Origin: an uncultured Bacillales bacterium
GTDB lineage: Bacteria > Bacillota_I > Bacilli_A > RFN20 > CAG-826
Length of the DNA: 64,000 nt
Assembly (NCBI GenBank): GCA_905197045.1
Contig: CAJJXG010000006.1
Coordinates: 9,555 to 73,554, forward strand
Direction: 5' to 3'
The position numbers and the translations under genes were made by a program. The notes under the pieces were generated by a model. The model worked only from the letters and a program-made list of their open reading frames with translations. It ran no database searches and was not told the DNA's origin. Of the stretch, positions 22,408-48,431 are shown piece after piece. The stretch's first letter is position 1; each line of letters begins with the position of its first letter.

Positions 22408-22992
22408 TTAGTTTATGTATTTAATAATTTTTGCTGGATTACCTGCAACAATAGCATTATCTGGTACATCTTTTGTAACCACACTTCCTGCTCCAATAAT
22501 TGCATTTTCTCCTATTGTTACACCTGGTAAAATAACACTTTTTGAGCCAATCCAAGCGTAATCTTTAATAACGATTTTTTTAGGAATTAAATCATATCTT
22601 TCTTCTTTTTTAAATCCATGATTTAAAGAAGCAAAAATACATTCGTGTCCAATATTTACATAATTACCAATTTCAATTCCGCCTTGATCTTGAAAAGCAC
22701 ATCCTGCGTTTATAAAAACATGTTTCCCTATTCTTAAGTTTTTTCCAAAATCAATATAAATTGGTGGAAATAAAGAAAAGTTATCATCTAAGTTTTTCCC
22801 AGTAATTTCTTCCATTAATTTTATTAATTCTTTTTCATCGTGATATTTAGTATTGATTTCAAAAGTTAACTTACGTGTCTCACCACTAATTTTATGCATT
22901 AACTCTTTATATTCATTACCTTGTTTTAAAGTTTTTCCTTCATTTAAATAGTTTAATAAATCATTTAAAGATACTTCTTTCATCTTAATCAA
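22408..22992 (-). CDS. maa: sugar O-acetyltransferase, hexapeptide-repeat family (Maa/LacA-like)
   Basis: 194 aa with an N-terminal Mac domain. Left-handed beta-helix hexapeptide repeats are present ([29 protein letters not shown]). Confidence 0.85.
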
Positions 22993-23908
22993 TCCTTTCT
23001 TTTATTACATCATCCGCCATTAATCTACCAATTAATAAGGATGAATCATCACTATGTTTTAAATAGTTATTTTTAACTTCTTCTTCATTAAAGTTTGCAT
23101 AGCAATAGCGACAAAGCGACTTACAAGAATTATATGCTCCAATATCAACAGTTTGGACACAATTACAATTTTCATTATCTCGATGAGTTCTTCTTTTAAA
23201 TTTAACAGTTTTATTAAGCTCATTCATTAAAGAAGAAGCAAATTCTTTTGTTAAACAACTTCCTTTAATAAAACCATATTGTGTTAGATTTTCTTTTTCT
23301 CCACAAGTAAAAATTTTAAGGTTATTTTCACTAGCAATCTTAAAAAATTCTTCTCCTATTAATTTATAATCTTCTTCTTTAAATTTCTCTAAATGTAGAT
23401 ATTTATCGTTATTATTTAAAACGTTTTTATATAAATCAATAAATGAAATCACCACATTATCAGCGCTTCCACTTATTTCACTTGCTAACTTTTTAAAAGC
23501 TTTTATGTGATAAGAGATAGTGTATTCCTTACTTTTTAAAATTGGATCAAAGCGAATAAAAATACGTTCCTTTCCATAGCGCTTTCCTAAATAACGAACT
23601 GCTTTAATTATTTCTTTTTTATCTTTAGCAATTTTAGGTTCAATATCTTCCTTATATGGTGTTATTGTAATATGAAAAATCAAAGGAACATTTTTTAAAA
23701 GTGAATCTAATTCATCAAGATATGGTAAAAATGGTATTGGATTTTTAGTACAAAACATAATAATATCGACCATATCAAAATAAATTCGTGATACAAGTTT
23801 TGGATTATAAGGATTTCTTGTATCAACATAGCCTTCTTTTACTCGATTTATAAACCATTTTGGATAGTAGGTTAAAATATCACTTCTTCCGCTTACAAAT
23901 AAAACCAT
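22985..23908 (-). CDS. DUF1848 domain-containing protein
   Basis: 307 aa. The N-terminus [33 protein letters not shown]... and [15 protein letters not shown] match the DUF1848 pattern. C-terminal cysteine cluster [15 protein letters not shown]. Confidence 0.75.
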
Positions 23909-23962: not shown

Positions 23963-24141
23963 TTGCATATTTTTATAGCGACTTTTTGAATGATTTGCAT
24001 TTTTTTCAAGCGAGTTTTTAAGAACTTTGCATATTTTTATAGCGACTTTTTAAGTTATTTGCATATTTTTATAGCGACTTTTTGAATGATTTGCATTTTT
24101 TTCAAGCGAGTTTTTAAGACTTTTACATATTTTTGTAGTGC
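23963..24141. repeat. tandem array of six 31-33-bp units (pattern A-B-A'-A-B-A'')
   Basis: Unit A is TTGCATATTTTTATAGCGACTTTTTGAATGA and unit B is TTTGCATTTTTTTCAAGCGAGTTTTTAAGAAC. The A+B pair (~62 bp) recurs almost exactly 96 bp later (23963-24025 vs 24059-24120). The last unit is degenerate. Confidence 0.85.
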
Positions 24142-24585
24142 AAAATGAGGATTCTAAGAATTATACTGTTGAAGCATGTCTGAAAACATTAAGTAGAATT
24201 GAGGCAACAAGGAATCCTTCAACCAATGAATACAACGTATTGTATGAATTAACTAAACACCAAAAAGAGATATTAAATTGCCTTGGATTAACTCAAAAAA
24301 TAGTTAATAAAACATATAAATACTGATTTAGTTATCAAAATCCTAAAAGTTTAGGACATAAATAACCTCACTTTTTAGCCACGATACCACGATAAATTTT
24401 AAAGTATCTAAAAATGTTGTTAACTGTTTCGGATATAAAAAATACGATGGTTATCGCATGTTTGCCTGTACGTATTTTCAAGGCTCTAAGGATTAATCGT
24501 GGCTTTTTCTAAACAAGGGACTGACATTCCCCCAAAAGTATTATAAATTAATATGAGATACGTCAAAACAAGGGAGGTAAGACCT

Positions 24586-25614
24586 ATGAATCCGTATTTT
24601 ATCATCAGCAATGCAAAGACCTTTGCTTTTTCCGCAGAAAATCCCACAGGAACCAGAGCAGGCGGTTCCAGAGGAGGGGATTGCACCAAGCTTCGTCCAA
24701 CCGTGACGATTCACGCAGGGGAGACTGTGACACTGGTGGACACCAATGGGCCAGGAATAATCCAGAGCATCTGGTTTACCGGCTACGTTGGACACAGCTT
24801 TGTGCTCCGCATTTACTGGGACAACTGCGAATATCCTTCTGTGGAAGCTCCCATTTCCGCATTTTTCGGGACAGCATACGATGAGAATTTTGTGGACAGG
24901 GATGGAAAATATGCGGTGCTCAATTCTGCAAAGATCCTAGTGGCTCCCGGACGAGGACTGAGCTGTTACTGGGAGATGCCTTTCAAAAAGCACTGCCGAA
25001 TCACCATGGAAAACCGCGGTGAAAAGGATCAGGACCTGTACTATATCATCACCGGCTGCCACTGTGAGGTGCCCGACGAGATCGGGTATTTCCATGCTTC
25101 CTACCGTCAGGAGCATCCCGTTCAGAAGGGACGTTCCTACACCATCATCGACGGCATTCAGGGAAAAGGCCAGTTCGTGGGCGTAACCCTGGCCACCGGA
25201 ATAAACGGAAACAACACCTGTTGGGTGGAGGGAGAAGCCAGAATGTACATAGACGATGACAAATATCCTTCCATTCACTATACAGGCACAGAGGATTATT
25301 TCGGCGGCTCCTACGGCTTTGGAAATGATGTTCAAATCAAATCCTATCAGACTTACAGCGGCCTTTACAGCGGAATGTACGCCATCTACGGTAATAACCG
25401 TGAATTTTACAACGGCCAGCAGAGATTTCTGCTATACCGCTTCCACATCGCTGACCCGATTCATTTTGAGACCAAATTCCGCATGACCCTGGACAATCTG
25501 GGATGGACCGGGCCACGATACGATGACTATACTTCCTGCGCATACTGGTATCAGACGCTGCCATCCGCACCACTGAAACCACTGCCGTCTGACAAAGAGA
25601 TGATTATGAAGTGA
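24586..25614 (+). CDS. DUF2961 / glycoside hydrolase family 172-like protein on a GC-rich foreign cassette
   Basis: The track ORF starts at 24553. The ATG at 24586 (MNPYFIISN...) has SD GGGAGG 7 nt upstream. DUF2961 hallmarks: GPGIIQSIWFT, WEMPFKKHCRITMEN, EGEARMYIDDDKYPSIHYTGTEDYFGG. G+C is visibly above 50%, against below 30% in the flanks. Confidence 0.85.
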   Translation: MNPYFIISNAKTFAFSAENPTGTRAGGSRGGDCTKLRPTVTIHAGETVTLVDTNGPGIIQSIWFTGYVGHSFVLRIYWDNCEYPSVEAPISAFFGTAYDENFVDRDGKYAVLNSAKILVAPGRGLSCYWEMPFKKHCRITMENRGEKDQDLYYIITGCHCEVPDEIGYFHASYRQEHPVQKGRSYTIIDGIQGKGQFVGVTLATGINGNNTCWVEGEARMYIDDDKYPSIHYTGTEDYFGGSYGFGNDVQIKSYQTYSGLYSGMYAIYGNNREFYNGQQRFLLYRFHIADPIHFETKFRMTLDNLGWTGPRYDDYTSCAYWYQTLPSAPLKPLPSDKEMIMK

Positions 25615-25653
25615 CCGCCACAGGCGAATGGGTAAAAAACATTACAAAAAATT

Positions 25654-25688
25654 GGGATGTCAAGCAAAAATACTTGACCCCTTTTTTT
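25654..25688 (+). terminator. rho-independent terminator of the GH172 cassette
   Basis: Stem GTCAAG / CTTGAC (~25659-25664 / 25673-25678), extendable by GGG/CCC. Followed by TTTTTTT (~25682-25688). Confidence 0.55.
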
Positions 25689-25744
25689 ATATAATCTTCG
25701 TTGGCTGACGGCAGCAGACTGCCTTATTTTTGACCGTAAAGAAA

Positions 25745-27013
25745 TCAAGGTTTTAAGCAGCCTAATGGGACTACATAAACGTCATCATCTCTTTTGTAGG
25801 CATATTTATTTTTTGTAATAACCATTAAGTATGCTGGCTGCTCAATTAAATCGTCTTTAATCTTTTTTAAATTACTGGCAGCTTCTTCTATATCGTCATC
25901 ATCGCCAAGTTTTATTTCTATTAATCCAAATTCACCATCACGATAGACAATAACTGCATCACATTCTCTACCTAAACTATCACGATAATGGTAAATAGAA
26001 GCATCGATAACCGAAGCGTAAATCTTTAAATCTCTAATTGCAAGCGATTCAAAAAGAAATCCAAATAATTTCATATCTTTAAATATTGATTGAGGCGTAA
26101 GGCCTAAAGAAGCTACAGCAATCGATGAATCAATAAAATATCTGGTATTTTTCGTTCTAATCGCTGTTTTACTTCTTAAATTTGTATTCCGAGCTAAAAC
26201 CTCATCAATTACAAACAATCTTTGAAGTGCTGAAAAATACTTTTCAAACGTTTTTACATCAATATTTGCGTCATTAATAATTGTAGAATCTGGACACTGA
26301 GTACCAATATTTCTTGCATACGAGCGTAATATTTTCTGCGATGTTAAAATATTTTTTCTAATTGCTAAATCTTTAAAAGTAAATAAATCATCTTGGTATA
26401 ATATCTCAAAATAATAATAAGCTTGCGCAAGAGCAACTTTTTCGCTTTCTCCTATAGATAATGGCCGGCCACCTCTACAAATATAAAATGCATAGTCAAA
26501 AATATTTTTCTCACAAGCGCCAAAATTAAAATTTCCATTTTTTAAAGAAGAAAGAGAAATTGTTCCATTACTTTCGCCGCTTTCATAAAGAGAGAGTGTT
26601 CTCATCATTTTTCGACAAATTCGACCATTTCCAGTATGTTCGTCTAATCCGTCTGCACTAATACTTGATGATAATTTATTAGTTACACTTCCTGTTAAAA
26701 TGTATTCGCCAAATTCACAATTTTTGTCAACTTGAATTTTAATTTCATTCCAAATAAAAGGTATAAGTTGCCATTCATCAATTAAAATTGGTTTCTCTCC
26801 TTGATTTAAAAATAAATCAGGAGCATTTTTAGCAAATTCAATAATTTGAGATCTCGTTTTTAAAGGCAGAAGTTCTATTATTGTTTTAGCATGTCTTGCA
26901 CATGTTGTTGTTTTACCACACCATTTTGGGCCAACTACCAATACAGCGCCTTTACTTTCTAAAGCAAATCGTAAAATTTCATCAAATAATCTTGGAATAT
27001 AGGTCTTTTTCAT
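25745..27013 (-). CDS. AAA+ ATPase with C-terminal DUF4143 (COG1373 family)
   Basis: 422 aa. Walker A VVGPKWCGKTT, Walker B ILIDEWQ. The DUF4143-type C-terminus (YHYRDSLGRECDAVIVYRDGEFGLIEIKLG) looks like a PD-(D/E)xK fold. Paralog of 43677..44972. Confidence 0.85.
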   Translation of the reverse strand: MKKTYIPRLFDEILRFALESKGAVLVVGPKWCGKTTTCARHAKTIIELLPLKTRSQIIEFAKNAPDLFLNQGEKPILIDEWQLIPFIWNEIKIQVDKNCEFGEYILTGSVTNKLSSSISADGLDEHTGNGRICRKMMRTLSLYESGESNGTISLSSLKNGNFNFGACEKNIFDYAFYICRGGRPLSIGESEKVALAQAYYYFEILYQDDLFTFKDLAIRKNILTSQKILRSYARNIGTQCPDSTIINDANIDVKTFEKYFSALQRLFVIDEVLARNTNLRSKTAIRTKNTRYFIDSSIAVASLGLTPQSIFKDMKLFGFLFESLAIRDLKIYASVIDASIYHYRDSLGRECDAVIVYRDGEFGLIEIKLGDDDDIEEAASNLKKIKDDLIEQPAYLMVITKNKYAYKRDDDVYVVPLGCLKP

Positions 27014-27052: not shown

Positions 27053-27167
27053 AATCCCAAAAATATTAGTAAAATAATCCCAAATTTATGAGTAAATTAA
27101 TCCCATAAATATTATTAAATTAATCCCAGAAATGTTAGTAAAATAATCCCAAAAATATTAGTAAAAA
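27053..27167. repeat. five tandem 23-bp direct repeats (iteron-like) upstream of the COG1373 ATPase
   Basis: AATCCCAAAAATATTAGTAAAAT / AATCCCAAATTTATGAGTAAATT / AATCCCATAAATATTATTAAATT / AATCCCAGAAATGTTAGTAAAAT / AATCCCAAAAATATTAGTAAAAA. The period is exactly 23 bp and the array starts ~40 bp upstream of the ATPase start codon. Confidence 0.9.
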
Positions 27168-27333
27168 ATCAAAAGTAGTTAGTTCTTAAAGGTAATTCAA
27201 CAATGATCGTTTTCGATATAAAATTCACTTAGTTAAAATAGTAAAACTAATAGATAGCTATTTAAATTAGCCTAATATAGCGCCTAGATTATAATCGTGT
27301 TTTACTTAAAAAGCCTGCAAATCAAAAAGTTTT

Positions 27334-41841: not shown

Positions 41842-42002
41842 ATTTTCTTTCCTTTACCTAAACTATTTTAATAACTTTTCTTAAATAATTAAAGTTAACG
41901 GAATTTTTTAAGTTAAATACACTAACAAAATTGAAATAATAATTTAATAAGATCAAATAATAAACTTTTTTTACTTATTTTGAATCGCTAAATAAATTGA
42001 TA

Positions 42003-42111
42003 CTTAAAAATACGCATTTAATCGTAATTTTTGCCATTAATTCTTACCTCTAGGACATGGTCATGGACATAAATAATGTCTAAGACATTTTTGAAAATGT
42101 CCTTGACATTT
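42003..42111. repeat. left copy (R1) of a ~110-bp direct repeat bracketing the COG2865 gene
   Basis: CTTAAAAATACGCATTTAATCGTAATTTTTGCCATTA...CTCTAGGACATGGTCATGGACATAAATAATGTCTAAGACATTTTTGAAAATGTCCTTGACATT. About 90% identical by eye to 43542-43653. Contains the palindrome AATGTCTAAGACATT (~42075-42089) and seven GACAT/ATGTC half-sites. Confidence 0.85.
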
Positions 42112-42132
42112 CTCTTTATTATTTTCTATTAA
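42103..42132 (+). promoter_or_regulatory. candidate promoter of the COG2865 gene, embedded in the end of R1
   Basis: TTGACA (~42103-42108)-(18 nt)-TATTAA (~42127-42132), ~30 nt upstream of the ATG. The -35 forms part of an ATGTCC/TTGACAT inverted pair. Confidence 0.4.
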
Positions 42133-42161
42133 AATCTTATATTTATTTAAAGGAAATTTTT

Positions 42162-43511
42162 ATGATTATTGGAAGAGAAACAGAAACCATCGAATTCAAA
42201 AAAAGTACCAGCGAATTAAAAGAGGCGCTTCAATCCATATCTGCTATTTTAAACAAGCATCAACATGGCGTTATTTATTTTGGTGTAAAAGACAATGGCG
42301 AAGTCGTAGGACAAAAAATTGAAAAAGATACATTAAGAGATATCTCAAATAAAATAAGAGAACAAATCAAACCAGAGTGTTTCTATAACGTTGAAAAGAG
42401 AAACGACGATGAGAATAACACTTTTATAGAAGTATCTTTTAGTGGAGAAAGAATTCCATATTCAGCTAATGGTAAATTTTATTTAAGATTTTCAGATCAA
42501 GATCGATTAATGACAAATGAGGAACTTGAAAAATTTTTTCTTAATATTCAAAAAAATTATTCTATATGGGAGAACGAAGATTCTTTTACTAGTATAAACG
42601 ATATAGATGAAGCTTTACTTGAAAAGATGATTAATAAAGGTTACGAAAACAAACGACTTCATTTTAAATATACTAATTCCTATGAAGTTTTAAAAAAGTT
42701 AGGATTAATTGCTAAAGGTAACCAAAACCTCAATAATGCAGGTAACGTATTATTTTCATCCTTAAATCCAATAACTCTTAAATTAGCCACTTTTGCGTCA
42801 GAAACAAAAGAAACATTTTTAAAACTTGAATATTTTGAAGGTAATATCTTCACTTGTATTGAAAAAGGAATTTCTTATGTTTTAAACGCAATAAATTGGA
42901 ACGTAACTTTAGATGGTTCACCTTTGAGAAAAGAAACTCCAGAGATTCCTAAAGAAGCATTAAGAGAGATTATAGTTAACGCTTTTAGTCATGCTCGTTA
43001 TAGAAGTTCGACTACTTTTGAAATTGATGTTTTTAAAGACCGTGTAACAATATATAGTCCTGGCTACTTTCCATTAGGATACACTCCTGAAGATTTTGCA
43101 TACAACCATGAAGAACCAATTATGTTGAATCCTAAGATTATTCACGTTTTATTTAAAACGTGTCAGATTGAATCTTTTGGTTATGGATTTGAAACAACTT
43201 TTAAATTATGTAAAGAATTTTCGGTACCATATAAGTACGAGAACACAAAATCAGGCTTTAAATTTATTTTTTATAGACCTTTATCATTAAAATATTCAAC
43301 TTTTGATTTAAACGATACTGAAACCAAAGTTTTAAGGCAAATTATAAAAAATTCAACAATTAAAATTAAAGAAATAGCCGCTAATATCAATAAAAGTGAG
43401 AAAACAGTATCACGTGCTCTTAAAAAATTAAAAGAAGAAAACTTTATATATCGTGAAGGCGATGATTTTAGAGGTGAATGGATTGTTAATAAGGATTTAT
43501 ATAAAAAATAA
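42162..43511 (+). CDS. AlbA_2 (Schlafen-like) + HATPase_c_4 + C-terminal wHTH protein (COG2865 family, often annotated as a 'RecG-like putative DNA-binding protein')
   Basis: 449 aa. The N-terminus GRETETIEFKKSTSELKEALQSISAILNKHQHGVIYFGVKDNGEVVGQ is the AlbA_2 signature. The central REIIVNAFSHARY motif matches HATPase_c_4. The C-terminus is an HTH (TIKIKEIAANINKSEKTVSRALKKLKEENFI). Confidence 0.8.
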   Translation: MIIGRETETIEFKKSTSELKEALQSISAILNKHQHGVIYFGVKDNGEVVGQKIEKDTLRDISNKIREQIKPECFYNVEKRNDDENNTFIEVSFSGERIPYSANGKFYLRFSDQDRLMTNEELEKFFLNIQKNYSIWENEDSFTSINDIDEALLEKMINKGYENKRLHFKYTNSYEVLKKLGLIAKGNQNLNNAGNVLFSSLNPITLKLATFASETKETFLKLEYFEGNIFTCIEKGISYVLNAINWNVTLDGSPLRKETPEIPKEALREIIVNAFSHARYRSSTTFEIDVFKDRVTIYSPGYFPLGYTPEDFAYNHEEPIMLNPKIIHVLFKTCQIESFGYGFETTFKLCKEFSVPYKYENTKSGFKFIFYRPLSLKYSTFDLNDTETKVLRQIIKNSTIKIKEIAANINKSEKTVSRALKKLKEENFIYREGDDFRGEWIVNKDLYKK

Positions 43512-43541
43512 TCACATTTAATTTAACTGTTTATAAATATT

Positions 43542-43653
43542 CTTAAAAAAATACGCATTTAATCGTAATTTTTGACATTACTACTTACCTCTAGGACATG
43601 GTCATGGACATAATTAATGTCTTAGACATATTTGAAAATGTCTAAGACATTTT
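43542..43653. repeat. right copy (R2) of the ~110-bp direct repeat
   Basis: CTTAAAAAAATACGCATTTAATCGTAATTTTTGACATTA...CTCTAGGACATGGTCATGGACATAATTAATGTCTTAGACATATTTGAAAATGTCTAAGACATTTT. It lies between two convergent genes. The TTGACA -35 of R1 is replaced here by TAAGACA. Confidence 0.85.
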
Positions 43654-43676
43654 AATGTTAAATTAAGATGCTAAAT

Positions 43677-44972
43677 TCAAGGTCTTAAACAATTAATTGG
43701 AATAATAAAGATACCTTCTTCGTTTTTATAGCAAGCTCCACTTGAAGTAATAATTGCTTTAAATTTAGGAAGTTTTGCTTTTGCTCGAACTAATTTGTCT
43801 TCAAATCTAGTAAGAGATCTAATTCCATCTTGAATATTTTCAGGACTATTAATTTTAACTTCTATCGCACCGAATTCACCATTTGGTAATTGAACAATTA
43901 TGTCGACTTCTTGACCGCTGCTATCCCTATAATGTTTTAAACTAGCGCCAATACTTTCAGCATAAACTGAGACATCTCTTACAACAAAGTCTTCAAAGAA
44001 AAGACCAAAAGATTTAATATCATTTAATAAATCATCAGGTTTAATATTAAGTGCTTCGCAAGCAATAGATGTATCAATAAAATGTCTAGTCGGAGCACAC
44101 CTTACTGCTACCGAAGATCTTAAATTGATGTTATATGAAGGCATATCATATATTAAAAATAACTTTTTCAATATAGTCTCATAATCATTAAAAGTGTTTT
44201 CGTCTAATTTGCTTCTTTCGCCAGATTCTAAAATATCATTTATCATGGTAGTTTTTTTGGCTTGTGTAGATATGTTACGAGCATAGGATTTTAAAATCAG
44301 TTTTAATAAATCTATATTTTTATTCTTGTAAAAGTCATTATATTCGTTATTCTCTCTAAATAAACCTGAATAATAATTGTCTGTAATTATCAAAGAAATG
44401 CTTTTTTCTGAACAAACGGATAAAGGCCAACCGCCACGGCAAATTAAAAAGGCAATATCAAATAAAGTAATTGGATTATCGTTTTCAAGCAAAGTTTTGA
44501 AATTATCTCCACCATGAAACAAATCTTCTATTGATACAATGCCAAAAGATTCTTCTGACTCATAAAGAGTGAATGGCTTTATATTTAAATCGACTATTCT
44601 TCCAGCACCAGAATGTAATATCTCTGAACTATTAAGTGGCATGGTGCTACCTGTTGTTAAATACTTTCCAAAAACATATTCATCATCCAAATCTTTTTTA
44701 ATTTGATTCCACACATCTGGACACCTTTGCCATTCATCAATTAAATGTGGTTTATCGCCTTCTATAGCCAATCTAGGATTTCCTTTGATAACCATTAATG
44801 TATTATTATCGCTTAAATAAGTTATCGATTTAGCATATCTTTTGCATAATGTTGTTTTGCCTGAAAATTTTGGACCATTAACTAACACACATCCAGAAGT
44901 TTTCATTTTAAGTTCAAGAACTTTTTCAATAATTCTATTTTTATATAAGCCATCTTTAATCATCATATCCAT
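43677..44972 (-). CDS. AAA+ ATPase with C-terminal DUF4143 (COG1373 family), paralog 2
   Basis: The track ORF (442 aa) starts at a TTG at 45005. The in-frame ATG at 44972 (MDMMIKDGLYKNR...) aligns better with paralog 1. Walker A VNGPKFSGKTT, Walker B HLIDEWQ. C-terminus HYRDSSGQEVDIIVQLPNGEFGAIEVK. Both paralogs end in a ...P[LI][GN]CL[KR]P tail. Confidence 0.85.
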   Translation of the reverse strand: MDMMIKDGLYKNRIIEKVLELKMKTSGCVLVNGPKFSGKTTLCKRYAKSITYLSDNNTLMVIKGNPRLAIEGDKPHLIDEWQRCPDVWNQIKKDLDDEYVFGKYLTTGSTMPLNSSEILHSGAGRIVDLNIKPFTLYESEESFGIVSIEDLFHGGDNFKTLLENDNPITLFDIAFLICRGGWPLSVCSEKSISLIITDNYYSGLFRENNEYNDFYKNKNIDLLKLILKSYARNISTQAKKTTMINDILESGERSKLDENTFNDYETILKKLFLIYDMPSYNINLRSSVAVRCAPTRHFIDTSIACEALNIKPDDLLNDIKSFGLFFEDFVVRDVSVYAESIGASLKHYRDSSGQEVDIIVQLPNGEFGAIEVKINSPENIQDGIRSLTRFEDKLVRAKAKLPKFKAIITSSGACYKNEEGIFIIPINCLRP

Positions 44973-45005
44973 ATTATAAATATCTATTTGCTTAAAAACA
45001 ATCAA

Positions 45006-45073
45006 ATTCAGTGTTTTGAAAGTTTTAATTCAGTGTTTTGAAAGATTATGATTCAGTGTTTTGAAAAGTAATA
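45006..45073. repeat. three tandem 22-23-bp direct repeats, proximal cluster upstream of COG1373 paralog 2
   Basis: ATTCAGTGTTTTGAAAGTTTTA / ATTCAGTGTTTTGAAAGATTATG / ATTCAGTGTTTTGAAAAGTAAT. The core TTCAGTGTTTTGAA contains the inverted half-sites TTCA-N6-TGAA. Confidence 0.9.
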
Positions 45074-45192
45074 ACAAGTACTAAAAATTTGGGATTAAAC
45101 TATAAAAATATTGTAAAAAAGTAGATTTTATAACGATTTTACTATCTTTGATAAAGCAAATACTTAATTTTCTGAATTAAATGCTTATTCAT

Positions 45193-45261
45193 TTTCAGTG
45201 TTTTGAAATGTTTTGTTTCAGTGTTTTGAAAGGTTTTAATTCAGTGTTTTGAAAATTATTA
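45193..45261. repeat. three further tandem copies of the same 23-bp repeat, distal cluster
   Basis: TTTCAGTGTTTTGAAATGTTTTG / TTTCAGTGTTTTGAAAGGTTTTA / ATTCAGTGTTTTGAAAATTATTA. Separated from the proximal cluster by ~120 bp of unique AT-rich DNA. Confidence 0.9.
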
Positions 45262-45427
45262 TTTCTAGATCTTAAATTAGACTAAACCGCTTTTAATTAG
45301 TATCATTTATAAATGTTCATTTTAATTATGGCTATAATCTTCTGATTCTATTTCTCATTATTTTTCTATAAAAATTTACAATTCATTCTTTTACAAGAGA
45401 GAAGGTAATTTATAAAATAATAAAGAT

Positions 45428-47515
45428 ATGGAAAAAGCAGCAAAAAGAAAAAGAATTATTATTAAATTAAATGAATCTAATTACGTTGAAAGAGATATTT
45501 CATGGTGTTATTTTAACTACCGTATTTTAAAAGAAGCTCAAAATAATAATGTCCCACTTTATGAAAGACTTTCATTTTTAGGAATATATTCAAGCAACCT
45601 CGACGAGTTTTATAAAGTTAGAGTTGCTACCTTAAAACGTATTGCAGAAAACACTTCAAAAGACTTTAAAAAAGAGAAAAACCTTGCAAAATCCACTTTA
45701 AAAAAGATTTATTCTCTTGTTTCTGACTACTCAAAAGAATATAACGAAGCAAGTAAAAAAGTCTTTGAAGAACTTAAAAATAAGGATGTTATCTTGCTTG
45801 ATGATTTAACAGTTAATGAAGAGCAAAAAGAATATTTAAGAAGTTATTTTGTTAAAAATATTTCTTTAGATATCAATCCTCTAATTCTTTCTAAAAAAGC
45901 TGATTTTTCTAGCGTCAACGATACACACATCTATTTAGCGATTAAAATGAGTGAGCCACTTAACAATAAGGAAGACAAAAATTGCTATGCTCTTATCGCT
46001 CTTCCTACTTCTCATTGTGGACGTTTTATTGCTCTACCTAGTAAAGACAATAAACACTACTATATCTATCTTGATGATGTTGTTCGTTTAAATCTTGATT
46101 ATATTTTTAAAAACTTACCATATCTAAAATTTGAAGCTTACGCTTTTAAATTTTCAAAAGATGCTGAAATGGAAATTGAATCAGATCCTGAAGAAGGCGT
46201 CTTAAAAAGTATTTCTTTAGCTGTTAAAGAAAGAAAAAAAGGTATCCCAGTCCGTGTAGTTTTTGGTGAAGGAATGCCAAAAGATCTTCAAGAAAAATTA
46301 ATTAAAAAACTTGAAATTGATGATACTGACATTATTACAAAAGGTGGAAAATATCATAACAATAAAGATTTAATGAAATTTCCACGTTTAAACATTGCCG
46401 GTTTATCATATCCAGAATGGCCTCAATCTTTTGAAAAAGCTTTTAAGGTCACTCCTTCTTTAATAGATATAATTTCCAAAAAAGATATTTTAGTTCATGT
46501 TCCTTATGAATCTTTTAATGCCTTCATTAATGTTTTACAAGAAGCCGCAATTTCACCAAATGTAAATGAAATTAAAGCCTCAATTTATCGAGCAGCAAAA
46601 GATAGTAAAGTCATTCAAGCTTTAATTAACGCTTCTAAAAATGGCAAAAAAGTAACCTGTATGGTTGAACTTTTAGCTCGCTTTGATGAATCAAGTAACA
46701 TTTTAATCTCACAAACTTTAAAAGATGCTGGTGTTGATGTTTTAACAGGTAAAGAAGGCTTTAAGGTTCATGGAAAAATTGTTTATATAAGAGTTAAAAA
46801 TGGAAAAGATATTGCAATTATTTCAACAGGCAACTTCCATGAAGGAAACGCTAAAACCTATACTGATTGTCTACTTTTCACTTCTAACCCTAAAATTGTT
46901 AATGAAGTTAAAGAAATTTTTAGTTATATCGCAAATCCTTATGAAAAGCATAATTTTAAAAACTTGCTCGTTTCCCCTTTACACATGCAATCTGTTTTTG
47001 AACGCTTAATAAAAAATGAAATTAAAAATCATAATGCTGGCTTACCAAGTGGTATTAAAATCAAAATTAATCATATTACTGATAAAGCCATGGTTAAATT
47101 GCTTTATGAAGCCAGTAGTAAAGGCGTAAAAGTTGATTTACTTATAAGAGGTAATTCTTCTCTTGTCCCTAATCTTCCTGTAGTTAGCGAAAATATATCA
47201 ATTCACGCTATAATTGATCGTTATCTTGAACATTCTCGTATTTTTGTTTTTGAAAACGCTGGAAATCCACTCGTTTATATGGGTTCAGCCGATTGGATGC
47301 CACGTAATTTATATAACCGTATTGAAGTTATTACTCCTGTTTATGATGAAGACATCAAAAAAGAACTTATTATGATTGTAAATAGAGGTTTAAAAGATAA
47401 TGTAAAAGGCGTTATTGCTAATGGCAAAGATGAATATGAAAGATATATTAATGATGATAAGCCTTTCCGCTCTCAAGAAGAGTTGTATAATTATTACAGC
47501 AAAACAAATAAATGA
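45428..47515 (+). CDS. ppk: polyphosphate kinase 1
   Basis: 695 aa. The N-terminus ERDISWCYFNYRILKEAQNNNVPLYERLSFLGIYSSNLDEFYKVRV is typical of PPK1. Two PLD-like HKD-type domains are present (HGKIVYIR..., HSRIFVFE...GSADWMPRNLYNRIEV). Confidence 0.95.
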   Translation: MEKAAKRKRIIIKLNESNYVERDISWCYFNYRILKEAQNNNVPLYERLSFLGIYSSNLDEFYKVRVATLKRIAENTSKDFKKEKNLAKSTLKKIYSLVSDYSKEYNEASKKVFEELKNKDVILLDDLTVNEEQKEYLRSYFVKNISLDINPLILSKKADFSSVNDTHIYLAIKMSEPLNNKEDKNCYALIALPTSHCGRFIALPSKDNKHYYIYLDDVVRLNLDYIFKNLPYLKFEAYAFKFSKDAEMEIESDPEEGVLKSISLAVKERKKGIPVRVVFGEGMPKDLQEKLIKKLEIDDTDIITKGGKYHNNKDLMKFPRLNIAGLSYPEWPQSFEKAFKVTPSLIDIISKKDILVHVPYESFNAFINVLQEAAISPNVNEIKASIYRAAKDSKVIQALINASKNGKKVTCMVELLARFDESSNILISQTLKDAGVDVLTGKEGFKVHGKIVYIRVKNGKDIAIISTGNFHEGNAKTYTDCLLFTSNPKIVNEVKEIFSYIANPYEKHNFKNLLVSPLHMQSVFERLIKNEIKNHNAGLPSGIKIKINHITDKAMVKLLYEASSKGVKVDLLIRGNSSLVPNLPVVSENISIHAIIDRYLEHSRIFVFENAGNPLVYMGSADWMPRNLYNRIEVITPVYDEDIKKELIMIVNRGLKDNVKGVIANGKDEYERYINDDKPFRSQEELYNYYSKTNK

Positions 47516-47525
47516 GGTTTAATAA

Positions 47526-48431
47526 ATGAAGAGTGGTTATTATGCTGGTATTGATATTGGTACAAATGGAGCTCGTCTTGTAATTAAAGACGCTTTTTAT
47601 AATGAAAATCGTGAACTTGAGGCGGTTGAAGTTAATAAAGTTCGTGTTCCTTTAAGACTTGGAGTCGATGTTTATTCTATCGGCGAACTTTCAGAAAGAA
47701 AAATTCATCAACTTTCATTATGTATTTCTTCTTTTAGAGATTTAATGAATATATATGATGTTGTTTCTTATTCTTGTCTTGCAACAAGCGCTATGAGAGA
47801 AGCAAAAAATGGTACTGAAGTAATTGAAAGAATTAGAAAAGAAACTGGCGTTCAAATTTCTATAATTGATGGAGAAACCGAAGCAAAAACAATCTCTAAA
47901 ATCGCTAAAGATTTTAAACTTGACGATGATAAATATGTTTTTATTGATGTTGGAGGAGGCTCAACCGAAGTTACTTTAGTTTCTAAAGGAAAAGCCATTG
48001 AAAGCACTTCTTTCGAACTTGGTACTCTTAGAATTTTAGCTCACAAAGATAAAAAAGAAACTTGGGGACGCTATGAAGATCTTCTTGATTCATATCATGA
48101 TAAATATGGGGCTTTAGATATTGTCGGAACTGGCGGAAATATTAACCGCTATTGGAAAATGAGCAAGAAAAAATCAAACAAAAAAGATTTAAACTATTTA
48201 ACAGTTGATGATCTTAACTCTTTATATAATGAATTAAGTAAATACACTCCTTCTCAAAGAATGGCTAGATATGATATGAAGCCTGATCGAGCTGACGTTA
48301 TAATTCCAGCCGGAAACATCTTTAAAAAAGCTAGCGAGATTTTAAAATCAAAAATAATTTATGTACCAATGATTGGTTTAAGTGATTCAATTGTTGATAC
48401 TTTAATTGAAAATTATATTAACGTAATTTAA
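47526..48431 (+). CDS. ppx: exopolyphosphatase, Ppx/GppA family (short, two-domain form)
   Basis: 301 aa. ASKHA phosphate-1 motif GIDIGTNGARLVI and phosphate-2 motif IDVGGGSTEV. Lies directly downstream of ppk. Confidence 0.85.
   Translation: MKSGYYAGIDIGTNGARLVIKDAFYNENRELEAVEVNKVRVPLRLGVDVYSIGELSERKIHQLSLCISSFRDLMNIYDVVSYSCLATSAMREAKNGTEVIERIRKETGVQISIIDGETEAKTISKIAKDFKLDDDKYVFIDVGGGSTEVTLVSKGKAIESTSFELGTLRILAHKDKKETWGRYEDLLDSYHDKYGALDIVGTGGNINRYWKMSKKKSNKKDLNYLTVDDLNSLYNELSKYTPSQRMARYDMKPDRADVIIPAGNIFKKASEILKSKIIYVPMIGLSDSIVDTLIENYINVI

What the first reader, a model, noticed from the sequence alone, without database searches (positions are those of the whole stretch)
45006..45261. Split 3+3 array of a different 22-23-bp repeat upstream of the second COG1373 ATPase, with one inverted copy of the other paralog's word
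Seen in sequence:
- Three tandem copies of ATTCAGTGTTTTGAAAG... lie at 45006-45073 and three more at 45193-45261. The core contains inverted half-sites TTCA-N6-TGAA.
- The proximal cluster begins ~34 bp upstream of the probable ATG (44972). It abuts the TTG that the ORF track used as the start.
- The ~120-bp unique spacer contains AAATTTGGGATT (~45085-45096). This is the reverse complement of AATCCCAAATTT, which matches the repeat word of the array at 27053-27167.

Inference: two clusters separated by ~120 bp could allow DNA looping. The stray inverted A-type word hints at cross-talk between the two paralogs or at a shared evolutionary origin of the arrays.
Basis: partly seen in the sequence, partly recalled or inferred. 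Interest (0 to 1): 0.62.

Follow-up and report, generated by a model that had tools for sequence, protein, structure and literature searches.

The report
Phased repeat operator of PDC-S01 ATPase
The 3+3 repeats are real and are one local example of a previously unreported rule: genes of the very common but uncharacterised candidate phage-defence ATPase family PDC-S01 (COG1373) carry 2-5 same-strand repeats, spaced 22-23 bases apart, at their own promoter, and these are most likely the protein's own binding sites.

Summary
Six exact copies of TTCAGTGTTTTGAAA lie in two clusters of three, 22-23 nt apart within a cluster, with a 119-nt spacer.

The main result is that this is a family-wide feature, not a local oddity.
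- In 75 homologous loci (45-61% identity; Bacteroidales, Clostridia, Bacilli), the strongest self-similarity lag upstream of the ATPase start is 23 nt in 69. In control windows it is 23 nt in 3.6% (p about 1e-91).
- The same 22-23-nt arrays occur at 22-39% identity in Bacteroides, Collinsella, Mycobacterium and alpha-/beta-proteobacterial plasmids.
- Units are always on the gene strand and abut or overlap the -35/-33 promoter element.
- The array is the only conserved non-coding DNA, and no neighbouring gene is conserved.
- The motif differs between protein clades and between the two paralogs in this window.
- One otherwise invariant residue (D257) changes only in the two lineages whose repeats change G to T.

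Related genomes have an empty NUDIX-ppk site, so both clusters arrived with the ATPase gene.

Best reading: these are self-recognised operator arrays for autoregulation, probably repression, by an Orc1/Cdc6-like AAA+ protein with a predicted winged helix and a nuclease domain.

Looping between the clusters is untested and specific to this lineage. The cross-talk word is marginal (P about 0.01-0.07). The TTCA-N6-TGAA dyad is not conserved.

The parts
45006..45073 (-). Proximal cluster of three 22-23-nt units. On the gene-sense strand each unit reads TTTCAAAACACTGAAT plus a 6-7-nt variable linker. The 16-nt cores lie at 45006-45021, 45028-45043 and 45051-45066.
   Evidence: The motif is the same as in the closest homologs L001-L006 and L053 (TTTCAAAACACCGAA).
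45193..45261 (-). Distal cluster of three units, same sequence and orientation. Cores lie at 45193-45208, 45216-45231 and 45239-45254. No promoter-like element lies immediately downstream of it on the gene-sense strand.
   Evidence: It is conserved in the 98% relative L083. It is absent from the 80 genome loci.
45074..45192 (.). Unique spacer of about 119 nt between the clusters. It holds no ORF of 20 aa or more apart from a 23-aa frame that runs through the repeats, and no Rfam match.
   Evidence: Two indels relative to L083 cancel out (-1 and +1), so the spacing is unchanged.
45085..45097 (+). Orphan word AAATTTGGGATTA. It is the reverse complement of TAATCCCAAATTT in the array of paralog 1. 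It resembles one unit of the paralog-1 type, pointing away from the ATPase gene.
   Evidence: Its significance is marginal.
44973..45001 (-). Inferred sigma-70-type promoter of the ATPase gene: -35 TTGTTT (45001-44996), a 17-nt spacer, then -10 TATAAT (44978-44973). The ATG at 44966 is the 7th base after the -10 element, which suggests a leaderless or near-leaderless transcript and a true start at 44966 rather than 44972.
   Evidence: Read. The same TTGTTT-N16/17-TATAAT lies directly after the last unit in L001 and L003, and TTGACG-N17-TATAAT in L002. Paralog 1 and its relatives show the same arrangement of -10, 6 nt, then ATG. This is an inference: no transcription start data exist, and the consensus scan did not list the site.
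43677..44972 (-). PDC-S01 / COG1373 ATPase gene (431 aa): AAA_14 P-loop domain, helical region, a winged-helix-like segment (about residues 220-298), and a C-terminal PD-(D/E)XK-like domain.
   Evidence: Pfam AAA_14 and DUF4143. PADLOC PDC-S01, E 5.9e-58. AlphaFold2 pLDDT 89.7, pTM 0.90. Foldseek hits to SSO1545, ORC/Cdc6, clamp loaders and Card1.
27053..27170 (-). Array of the paralogous ATPase (gene 25745-27013, 38% identical). Five 23-nt units read ATTTTACTAATATTTTTGGGATT on the sense strand, followed by TTGTTA-N17-TAAACT, 6 nt and the ATG.
   Evidence: Relatives L084-L087 (86-88% identical) carry 2-4 detected units of the same motif.
41890..45345 (.). Insertion of about 3.45 kb (approximate ends) relative to related genomes. 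It carries the Schlafen/AlbA_2-wHTH gene, the ATPase gene and both repeat clusters.
   Evidence: Relatives whose ppk is 86-92% identical have NUDIX and ppk separated by only 112 nt, with no repeats.

Best explanation
The six repeats are the cognate operator array of the adjacent gene. That gene encodes a PDC-S01/COG1373 protein with an AAA+ ATPase, a predicted winged helix and a PD-(D/E)XK nuclease domain.

**Proposed mechanism**
- Each 22-23-nt unit is an asymmetric site for one protomer. It has two conserved blocks about one helical turn apart and a 6-7-nt free linker.
- Protomers bind head-to-tail on 2-5 phased units. This orientation matches the inherently head-to-tail assembly of AAA+ proteins.
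- The array ends at, or overlaps, the -35/-33 element of the gene's own promoter. Occupancy therefore sets the gene's own expression, most likely by repression that keeps the nuclease-ATPase low until the protein is titrated away or changes nucleotide state.
- In this lineage a second, distal triplet 187 nt upstream was added. It may raise local occupancy or permit looping.

**Shown:** the array architecture, its family-wide conservation, its position relative to promoter elements, its co-transfer with the gene, and clade-specific motifs.
**Inferred:** that the ATPase itself binds the array, the sign of regulation, and any role of the distal cluster.
For: 1. **Family-wide periodicity.**
   - Among loci at 45-61% identity, lag 23 is the best of lags 15-34 in 69 of 75 upstream regions. 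In control windows from the same loci it is best in 17 of 468 (binomial p 7e-92). The mean lag-23 score is 33.1 of 46, against 17.4 in controls.
   - Tandem Repeats Finder reports arrays in 35 of 75 upstream regions, against a background of 0.023 per 430 nt.
   - Lag 23 is also best in 16 of 18 loci at 33-40% identity.
   - Lag 22 or 23 is best in 13 of 14 plasmid loci at 22-36% identity, in Bacteroides, Collinsella, Agrobacterium, Rhodoferax, Sinorhizobium and Sphingomonas among others. The Mycobacterium locus has four units visible on reading.
2. **Orientation and position.** Units are always on the gene strand, in register, 30-130 nt before the ATG. They are essentially absent elsewhere in the loci.
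3. **Only conserved non-coding DNA.** Among class-A pairs below 85% protein identity, identity is 0.29 in the 40 nt before the first unit, 0.80 in the units and 0.33 after them.
4. **No conserved partner gene.** The commonest neighbour family is present in 6 of 80 loci, and it is another ATPase paralog.
5. **The motif tracks the protein, not the host.**
   - The same class-A motif occurs in Bacteroidales, Clostridia, Bacilli and Spirochaetes.
   - The two paralogs in this one genome carry different motifs.
   - All 12 units of the window lineage share a derived T at position 12.
6. **Residue-base covariation.** D257, at the start of the third helix of the winged-helix-like segment, is invariant in 81 of 83 proteins. 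It changes only in L050 (E) and L057 (T). These are not sister sequences, and they are the only loci whose units read GGT instead of GGG. It is the only column in the protein with exactly that pattern.
7. **Promoter geometry.**
   - In Bacteroidales the last unit supplies the -33 TTG and runs up to the TAnnTTTG box.
   - In Firmicutes a partial extra unit (ATTGAAA/ATTGACA) is the -35 element.
   - In class B the -35 element starts at unit position 21-22.
8. **Fold.** The protein has an Orc1/Cdc6-like AAA+ architecture. The wing arginines R285 and R291 are invariant, and the nuclease residues D357, E371 and K373 are conserved.
9. **Arrival with the gene.** Related genomes have an empty NUDIX-ppk site, so both clusters came in with the ATPase.
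Against: - There is no binding, footprint or expression data, and transcription starts are not mapped.
- The winged-helix assignment rests on the secondary-structure order of the full-length model. An isolated-domain model was poor (pLDDT 67.8) and gave no Foldseek hit below E = 2. Pfam sees only DUF4143 in that segment.
- In Firmicutes-type loci, including this window, the nearest full unit is centred near -49. That position suits activators as well as repressors.
- The D257 covariation rests on two lineages and was noticed after the fact.
- The motif-clade correlation is partly explained by shared ancestry.
- The loci sampled are mostly gut bacteria, and archaeal members were not examined.
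- PDC-S01 itself is only a candidate defence gene (PMC12988326).
Confidence: 0.6

Rival explanations
1. The ATPase-nuclease does bind the array, but not mainly for transcription control. The array would be a nucleation or loading platform, or a 'home base', on which the AAA+ oligomer assembles. This would resemble ORB/iteron-type or parS-type sites, and any effect on expression would be secondary.
For: - The architecture resembles Orc1/Cdc6, and archaeal Orc1/Cdc6 genes also sit next to their repeated binding sites (the adjacency is established knowledge).
- The 22-23-nt spacing resembles plasmid iterons.
- The period is conserved across four phyla while promoter types differ.
- The extra distal triplet has no promoter of its own.
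Against: - In every clade the array is locked to the promoter, at or overlapping -35/-33. A pure loading site would not need that.
- No DnaA boxes lie in the region.
- All units are direct repeats, not inverted around an unwinding element.
- The loci are chromosomal, on contigs up to 345 kb.
Confidence: 0.17
2. The repeats are bound by a host factor or by RNA polymerase itself, as a tandem -35-like or UP-like promoter array. They are unrelated to the ATPase's DNA-binding specificity.
For: - Class-A units begin with TTGAAA, which resembles a -35 element.
- The 23-nt period equals the distance from the start of -35 to the start of -10 (6 + 17).
- On the opposite strand the window's units contain TTGAAA, which the promoter scan picked up twice.
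Against: - The second conserved block (GGGAAT, CACCGAA, GGGATT, GCCAAA..CCGAA, TTCCAAT, ATGGACG and others) differs by ATPase clade, although sigma-70 specificity is universal.
- The same motif occurs in Bacteroidota and Firmicutes, which use different promoter consensus sequences.
- Two paralogs in one genome have different motifs.
- No regulator gene travels with the module.
- Promoter-like hits in the region are at the chance level: 6 found, 5.4 expected.
Confidence: 0.1
3. The repeats act at the RNA level, as a repeated 5' leader, or are a functionless product of replication slippage.
For: - Copy number varies between close relatives: 2 to 4 detected units among L084-L087.
- Many arrays have units identical even in their linkers (L001, L014, L023), which shows recent slippage or conversion.
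- In alpha-proteobacterial loci the array runs up to the annotated ATG.
Against: - In Firmicutes-type loci the -35 and -10 elements lie downstream of the array, so this promoter does not transcribe it.
- A 23-nt period is not a multiple of 3.
- There is no Rfam match.
- Neutral repeats would not keep the same period, strand and position from 22% to 98% protein identity across four phyla.
Confidence: 0.05

Closest known systems
Plasmid iterons with Rep autoregulation (for example pSC101, P1, F, RK2)
   Same: Both have direct repeats with a period of about 22 bp, lying next to the gene for a winged-helix protein. In iteron plasmids that protein binds the repeats as head-to-tail monomers, and the gene's promoter is controlled by the same protein.
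   Different: - The protein here is AAA_14 plus DUF4143, not a WH1-WH2 Rep.
- There are no DnaA boxes, and the loci are chromosomal on contigs up to 345 kb.
- The array has only 2-5 units and is fused to the promoter.
Archaeal Orc1/Cdc6 and ORB elements
   Same: The protein has an AAA+ initiator-clade fold followed by a winged-helix-like segment (Foldseek hits 2qby, 7jpq, 2fna). The gene is adjacent to repeated recognition sites.
   Different: - ORB elements are typically inverted around an unwinding region, whereas all units here are direct and on the gene strand.
- There is an extra PD-(D/E)XK domain.
- The hosts are bacterial, and the array sits at the promoter.
Controller (C) proteins and C-boxes of restriction-modification systems; BrxR/CapW/RptR-type repressors of defence islands
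   Same: A nuclease-containing or defence locus is held under tight autoregulation by sites at its own promoter that move with the locus.
   Different: - Those regulators are small, separate HTH proteins that bind palindromes as dimers.
- Here the presumed binder is the effector itself.
- The sites are 2-5 asymmetric direct repeats, 23 nt apart.
MalT/SARP-type STAND or AAA+ regulators, and DnaA at the dnaA promoter
   Same: An NTP-dependent oligomerising ATPase with a DNA-binding domain binds cooperatively to arrays of asymmetric sites in direct orientation, upstream of or overlapping -35.
   Different: - Different ATPase clades and DNA-binding domains.
- Different spacing (about 10-11 bp for those systems).
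- They regulate other operons.
- They have no nuclease domain.

Membership tests
PDC-S01 / COG1373 (AAA_14 + DUF4143) candidate defence ATPases | N-terminal AAA_14 P-loop domain with Walker A and Walker B motifs | tested here: met
   PF13173, E 9.8e-14. G33, G38, K39, D79 and E80 are invariant in 69 sequences.
PDC-S01 / COG1373 (AAA_14 + DUF4143) candidate defence ATPases | DUF4143 region with PD-(D/E)XK catalytic residues | tested here: met
   PF13635, E 9.2e-27. D357 and E371 are invariant, and K373 is conserved in at least 90% of sequences. Foldseek aligns the model with the Card1/Cdn1 nucleases.
PDC-S01 / COG1373 (AAA_14 + DUF4143) candidate defence ATPases | Match to the PADLOC PDC-S01 model | tested here: met
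   PDLC04790: E 5.9e-58 for this gene and 6.7e-53 for the paralog.
PDC-S01 / COG1373 (AAA_14 + DUF4143) candidate defence ATPases | Protection against phage | not testable with these tools
   The literature describes PDC-S01 as an unvalidated candidate (PMC12988326).
Iteron-type replication origin | Direct repeats of 17-22 bp with a period of about 22 bp | tested here: met
   The period is 22-23 nt, with 3+3 copies.
Iteron-type replication origin | Adjacent gene encodes a Rep initiator, and DnaA boxes are nearby | tested here: not met
   The gene is AAA_14/DUF4143. No TTATCCACA with 1 mismatch or fewer lies in 44973-45427. Homologous modules sit in chromosomal contigs up to 345 kb.
Archaeal-type Orc1/Cdc6-ORB origin | AAA+ initiator fold with a C-terminal winged helix | tested here: inconclusive
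   The full-length model hits ORC/Cdc6 and SSO1545 (E 4e-7 to 1e-4, TM 0.2-0.49). The isolated-domain model gave no significant hit.
Archaeal-type Orc1/Cdc6-ORB origin | Recognition boxes in inverted orientation flanking an unwinding element | tested here: not met
   All units are direct and on the gene strand, in the window and in the 80 genome loci.
CRISPR array | Repeats separated by unique spacers of similar length, usually with cas genes nearby | tested here: not met
   Units are contiguous, with a 16-nt core and a 6-7-nt linker. Neither gene flanking the arrays is a cas gene: one is the ATPase and the other is ppk.
Autoregulatory operator at the gene's own promoter | Sites overlap or abut the -35/-10 (or -33/-7) elements of the gene that travels with them | tested here: met
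   Sequence geometry in three promoter types. The promoters are inferred from consensus and are not mapped.
Autoregulatory operator at the gene's own promoter | The gene product binds the sites and changes its own transcription | not testable with these tools
   Only indirect support: no other conserved gene, clade-specific motifs, and the D257/G15 covariation.

The most novel reading that the evidence does not exclude
PDC-S01 proteins are sequence-specific, ATP-driven oligomerising nucleases whose DNA specificity is written next to each gene. The promoter array would be both the repressing operator and the template that sets the 23-bp register of the oligomer. Foreign DNA would compete for, or re-template, that oligomer, which would simultaneously de-repress the gene and activate the nuclease. 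Foreign DNA of this kind might include phage or plasmid repeat arrays with a similar period of about 22 bp, such as iterons. Motif diversification between clades and paralogs would then reflect arms-race retargeting and insulation between paralogs.
Probability: 0.13. Interest if true: 0.88.

Novelty: new variant of a known kind. Interest (0 to 1): 0.68.

Why it matters
PDC-S01 is reported to be among the most frequent defence candidates in prokaryotes. One survey ranks it fourth overall, with about 39,000 loci. Another found it to be the most frequent single locus in rumen genomes (PMC12988326, PMC13356809). It has no known mechanism, target or regulation.

A conserved, clade-specific repeat array at each gene's promoter gives a predicted DNA-recognition sequence for every family member. 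It also gives a predicted contact residue (D257) and a simple test system: EMSA, a promoter reporter, and array swaps between the two paralogs of one genome. In addition, it gives annotators a non-coding signature for the family, and it explains why assemblies break just upstream of these genes.

The full-text searches run here (DUF4143, COG1373, PDC-S01, Pfam accessions, guilt-by-embedding) found no paper that mentions these repeats.

Tried and rejected
- **Sequence search of the PDB.** No hit with the single protein, and only noise with the profile.
- **Isolated winged-helix segment.** The AlphaFold2 model of residues 208-300 was poor (pLDDT 67.8) and its Foldseek hits all had E above 2. The domain-level confirmation therefore failed and is not used as evidence.
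- **Pfam on the two sub-segments.** Only DUF4143 was returned.
- **Metagenome scan with paralog 1.** It gave only 4 loci.
- **The 78% ortholog (L082).** Its contig breaks 8 nt upstream of the gene, so its array cannot be read.
- **Promoter and terminator scan.** Promoter-like hits are at the chance level, and the scan did not list the promoter inferred by homology.
- **Small ORFs or a known RNA in the intergenic region.** None found.
- **A regulon elsewhere in the window.** There are no further copies with 1 mismatch or fewer. Two 2-mismatch hits inside an ORF near 59.8 kb are within the chance expectation.
- **Replication origin.** Rejected: no DnaA boxes, no Rep gene, chromosomal context.
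- **CRISPR-like array.** Rejected: there are no spacers.
- **Cross-talk word.** An ungapped matrix of the paralog's unit does not rank it in the top 20 positions. A gapped matrix ranks it second among non-array positions. I treat it as unproven.
- **Literature searches** on AAA_14 and Pfam accessions returned only irrelevant papers.
Full report
**1. The observation**

The intergenic region 44973-45427 lies between a minus-strand gene (43677-44972) and the plus-strand ppk-ppx genes (45428-48431). Tandem Repeats Finder reports two arrays of period 23: 45005-45074 with 3.1 copies and 45193-45265 with 3.2 copies.

The 15-mer TTCAGTGTTTTGAAA occurs exactly six times, at 45007, 45029, 45052, 45194, 45217 and 45240. 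It has no other copy in the 64-kb window with 0 or 1 mismatch. The proximal cluster abuts the TTG at 45005 and lies 34 nt from the ATG at 44972. The spacer is 119 nt.

**2. The gene**

Both this gene and the paralog at 25745-27013 (38% identical) have the Pfam domains AAA_14 and DUF4143. Both match the PADLOC model PDC-S01 (E 5.9e-58 and 6.7e-53).

PDC-S01 is a single-gene phage-defence candidate that has not been validated. It is described as the fourth most common defence candidate across prokaryotes, and as an ATPase fused to a PD-(D/E)XK nuclease (PMC12988326; PMC13356809; PMC3424549).

An AlphaFold2 model built from 69 sequences is confident (pLDDT 89.7, pTM 0.90). It shows:
- a P-loop domain at residues 1 to about 135;
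- a helical region;
- a helix-helix-helix-strand-wing-strand segment at about residues 220-298;
- a C-terminal alpha/beta domain.

Foldseek places the model nearest to the archaeal AAA+ protein SSO1545, ORC/Cdc6, clamp loaders and RuvB. The C-terminal part aligns with the Card1/Cdn1 nucleases. The following residues are invariant or nearly so:
- Walker A: G33, G38, K39
- Walker B: D79, E80
- wing arginines: R285, R291
- putative nuclease residues: D357, E371, K373

**3. The array is a property of the family**

A scan of one genome per species returned 80 loci, 45-61% identical, from Bacteroidales, Clostridia, Bacilli/Mollicutes, Spirochaetes and others.

| Locus set | Protein identity | Result |
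|---|---|---|
| Genome loci with at least 150 nt upstream | 45-61% | Tandem Repeats Finder array of period 22-23, about 3 copies, within about 110 nt of the start in 35 of 75; background 0.023 arrays per 430 nt |
| Same loci, lags 15-34 tested | 45-61% | best lag is 23 in 69 of 75; mean lag-23 score 33.1 of 46 |
| Random 260-nt control windows of the same loci | n/a | best lag is 23 in 17 of 468; mean lag-23 score 17.4 of 46; binomial p 7e-92 |
| Viral-contig loci | 33-40% | best lag is 23 in 16 of 18 usable loci |
| Plasmids of cultured bacteria | 22-36% | best lag is 22 or 23 in 13 of 14; Mycobacterium units are visible on reading |

Motifs in the plasmid loci:
- Bacteroides ovatus: AAGCCAAACTGCCGAATAATATT, 3 copies.
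- Collinsella aerofaciens: AATCGTCCCAACGAGCTATCGTC, 3.5 copies.
- Mycobacterium riyadhense: GTGGAATCAGGACGTTTCTAGCC, 4 copies.
- Agrobacterium and Rhodoferax: ATTGGACG, 3 copies, period 22.
- Eight further alpha-proteobacterial plasmids: TTCCAAT, ATGGACG or TTTCAAATAGTCA, with lag 22 best in 8 of 8.

Relatives of paralog 1 (86-88% identical) carry 2-4 detected units of its motif. The period is therefore constant from 22% to 98% protein identity across four phyla, while the sequence of the unit changes.

**4. Anatomy of the arrays**

Motif hits are always on the gene strand and in 23-nt register, with 2-5 copies (one locus scored 6), 30-130 nt before the ATG. They are almost absent from the rest of the roughly 7-kb loci. 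The exceptions lie just after the gene, at the distance where a second gene copy would begin.

- **Class A** (176 units in 71 loci). There are two conserved blocks, TTGAAAAT (positions 2-9) and GGAATT (14-19), whose centres are about 11 nt apart. A variable tetranucleotide separates them, and a linker follows.
- **Class B**, the class of this window (33 units). The unit reads TTTCAAAACAC[C/T]GAA[T/A] and is followed by 7 variable positions.
It occurs only in the window lineage, in 12 of 12 units.
  - Elsewhere position 12 is C. The units are therefore asymmetric sites, not palindromes.

Among class-A pairs below 85% protein identity, ungapped identity is 0.29 in the 40 nt before the first unit, 0.80 in the last unit and 0.33 in the 40 nt after it. 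The array is the only conserved non-coding DNA. No neighbouring gene is conserved either: the commonest neighbour family occurs in 6 of 80 loci, and it is another ATPase paralog.

**5. Relation to the promoter** (inferred from sequence; transcription starts are not mapped)

- In Bacteroidales the last unit is followed directly by TAnnTTTG(CA), and its ATTG sits where the -33 element belongs. The GGGAAT block therefore lies inside the promoter spacer.
- In Firmicutes-type class-A loci, an extra partial unit (ATTGAAA or ATTGACA) in register is followed by 17 nt and then TATAAT or a close variant.
- In class-B loci a TTGTTT or TTGACG hexamer starts at position 21-22 of the last unit and is followed by 16-17 nt and TATAAT.
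- In the window the sense strand reads CACTGAAT-TTGA-TTGTTT-N17-TATAAT-ATGGAT-ATG.
  - The -35 element would be 45001-44996 and the -10 element 44978-44973.
  - The ATG at 44966 is the seventh base after the -10 element.
  - Paralog 1 and its relatives have the same arrangement of -10, 6 nt, then ATG.
  - The TTG at 45005 is therefore not a start codon. The true start is probably 44966, on a leaderless or near-leaderless transcript.

**6. Who binds the array?**

Several lines point to the ATPase itself.
- It is the only protein that travels with the array.
- The same motif accompanies the gene across phyla that use different promoter types.
- Two paralogs in one genome, facing the same host factors, carry different motifs.
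- All 12 units of the window lineage share one derived base.
- Classes A and C share the DNA word TTGGGAWT and the wing sequence RSKT[SA]IR. Class B has CACCGAA and RSSV[AS]VR.
- D257 sits at the start of the third helix of the winged-helix-like segment.
  - It is D in 81 of 83 proteins. It changes only in L050 (E) and L057 (T).
  - Those two are not each other's nearest relatives: they are 67% identical, and their nearest neighbours are at 76% and 68%.
  - They are the only loci in which both units read GGT instead of GGG.
  - It is the only column of the whole protein with exactly that pattern.
- In the more distant loci, D at this column mostly goes with a GAAT word in the unit, and S, N or T mostly goes without it. 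The unit alignment across classes is uncertain there.

This covariation is suggestive but was noticed after the fact, and it rests on two lineages.

**7. The module is an insertion**

Genomes whose ppk is 86-92% identical have NUDIX and ppk divergent, with only 112 nt between them and no repeats. Window homology on the ppk side begins near 45345-45350.

About 3.45 kb (roughly 41890-45345) is therefore inserted DNA. It carries a Schlafen/AlbA_2-wHTH gene, the ATPase and both repeat clusters. Two other relatives (L082, L083) have the ATPase but lack the Schlafen-like gene. The repeats are thus not ppk regulatory DNA.

**8. The features specific to this window**

- **The 3+3 split.** It is kept in the 98%-identical relative L083, where two indels in the spacer cancel so that the spacing is unchanged. 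None of the 80 genome loci has a distal cluster. The distal cluster has no promoter-like element immediately downstream on the sense strand. Looping or a local-concentration effect is possible but untested.
- **The orphan word.** A shared 13-mer arises in 1.0-2.4% of shuffles, and a match of 12 or more in 2 of 135 window tiles. With a gapped matrix of the paralog's unit it ranks second among non-array positions, but it lacks the invariant TTTT block. I regard cross-talk as unproven.

**9. Mechanism and comparison with known systems**

- **Best reading (confidence 0.6).** The array is an operator recognised by the gene's own product. One protomer binds per 23-nt unit, protomers assemble head-to-tail, and occupancy controls the gene's own promoter, probably by repression. 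The arrays overlap the core promoter in Bacteroidales. In the alpha-proteobacterial loci they run up to the annotated ATG.
- **Rivals.** These are a non-regulatory loading platform, binding by a host factor or RNA polymerase, and an RNA-level or neutral repeat.
- **Closest known systems.** These are iteron/Rep autoregulation, Orc1/Cdc6-ORB, C-protein/C-box control of restriction-modification systems, and MalT- or DnaA-type cooperative ATPases.
- **Membership.** Membership in the iteron-origin, ORB-origin and CRISPR categories fails on tested features. Membership in PDC-S01 is met.

**10. Novelty and limits**

The full-text searches run here found nothing on these repeats.

The limits are:
- no experimental data;
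- promoters inferred, not mapped;
- the winged-helix assignment not confirmed at domain level;
- sampling biased towards gut bacteria;
- archaeal members not examined.

Noticed in passing
window 42006-42111 and 43547-43652: A 106-nt direct repeat (92% identical) flanks the Schlafen/AlbA_2-HATPase_c_4-wHTH gene (42162-43511). It contains a run of palindromes of the form AGACAT-N-ATGTCT. That gene is absent from the relatives L082 and L083, so the repeat may mark its insertion or deletion, or may be its operator region.
   Followed up: partly
window about 41890-45345, compared with L125/L126 (3889-4000) and L127 (2383-2494): Related genomes (ppk 86-92% identical) have an empty site, with NUDIX and ppk only 112 nt apart. 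The Schlafen-like gene, the ATPase and the repeats form a strain-variable insertion with no integrase or transposase inside it.
   Followed up: yes
window 23963-24138: A third array has a 32-nt unit in 5.5 copies (or 96 nt in 1.8 copies), TTGCATATTTTTATAGCGACTTTTTGAATGAT. It lies 55 nt upstream of a DUF1848 gene (22985-23908, minus strand) that matches the PADLOC model RTasDUF1848 (a DRT accessory). It may be an analogous operator array for another family.
   Followed up: no
window 24001-26000 (DUF2961 gene 24553-25614): This segment has 41% G+C against a background of about 28%, which suggests recent horizontal acquisition next to the paralogous ATPase.
   Followed up: no
window 44973-44966, 27019-27013 and 45413-45428; L127 2480-2497: The -10-like hexamers lie only 6-9 nt before the ATG of ATPase 2, ATPase 1 and ppk. 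In L127 the ppk -10 element is 6 nt from the ATG. This organism may commonly use leaderless or near-leaderless mRNAs.
   Followed up: partly
L092 (Pseudomonas mendocina plasmid NZ_CP115818) 1146-1307 and 3085-3246: The ATPase gene is bracketed by two similar composite repeats. Each consists of TTTT(A/T)TCTTGT in about 3.5 copies followed by a 21-22-nt unit in about 3.9 copies that contains CTACAGATTC. The upstream one lies 185-270 nt from the ATG, farther than in other loci. These could be plasmid iterons rather than the family array.
   Followed up: no
L082 (contig start): The contig carrying the 78%-identical ortholog begins 8 nt upstream of the gene. This fits an assembly break at the repeat array. 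Such breaks may hide these arrays in short-read metagenome assemblies.
   Followed up: no
L049 (+1292, +1315), L072 (+1262, +1285) and L006 (+1327), relative to the ATPase start: Additional class-A or class-B units appear immediately after the ATPase gene in some loci, at the distance where a second gene copy would begin. A second, tandem paralog with its own array may follow.
   Followed up: no
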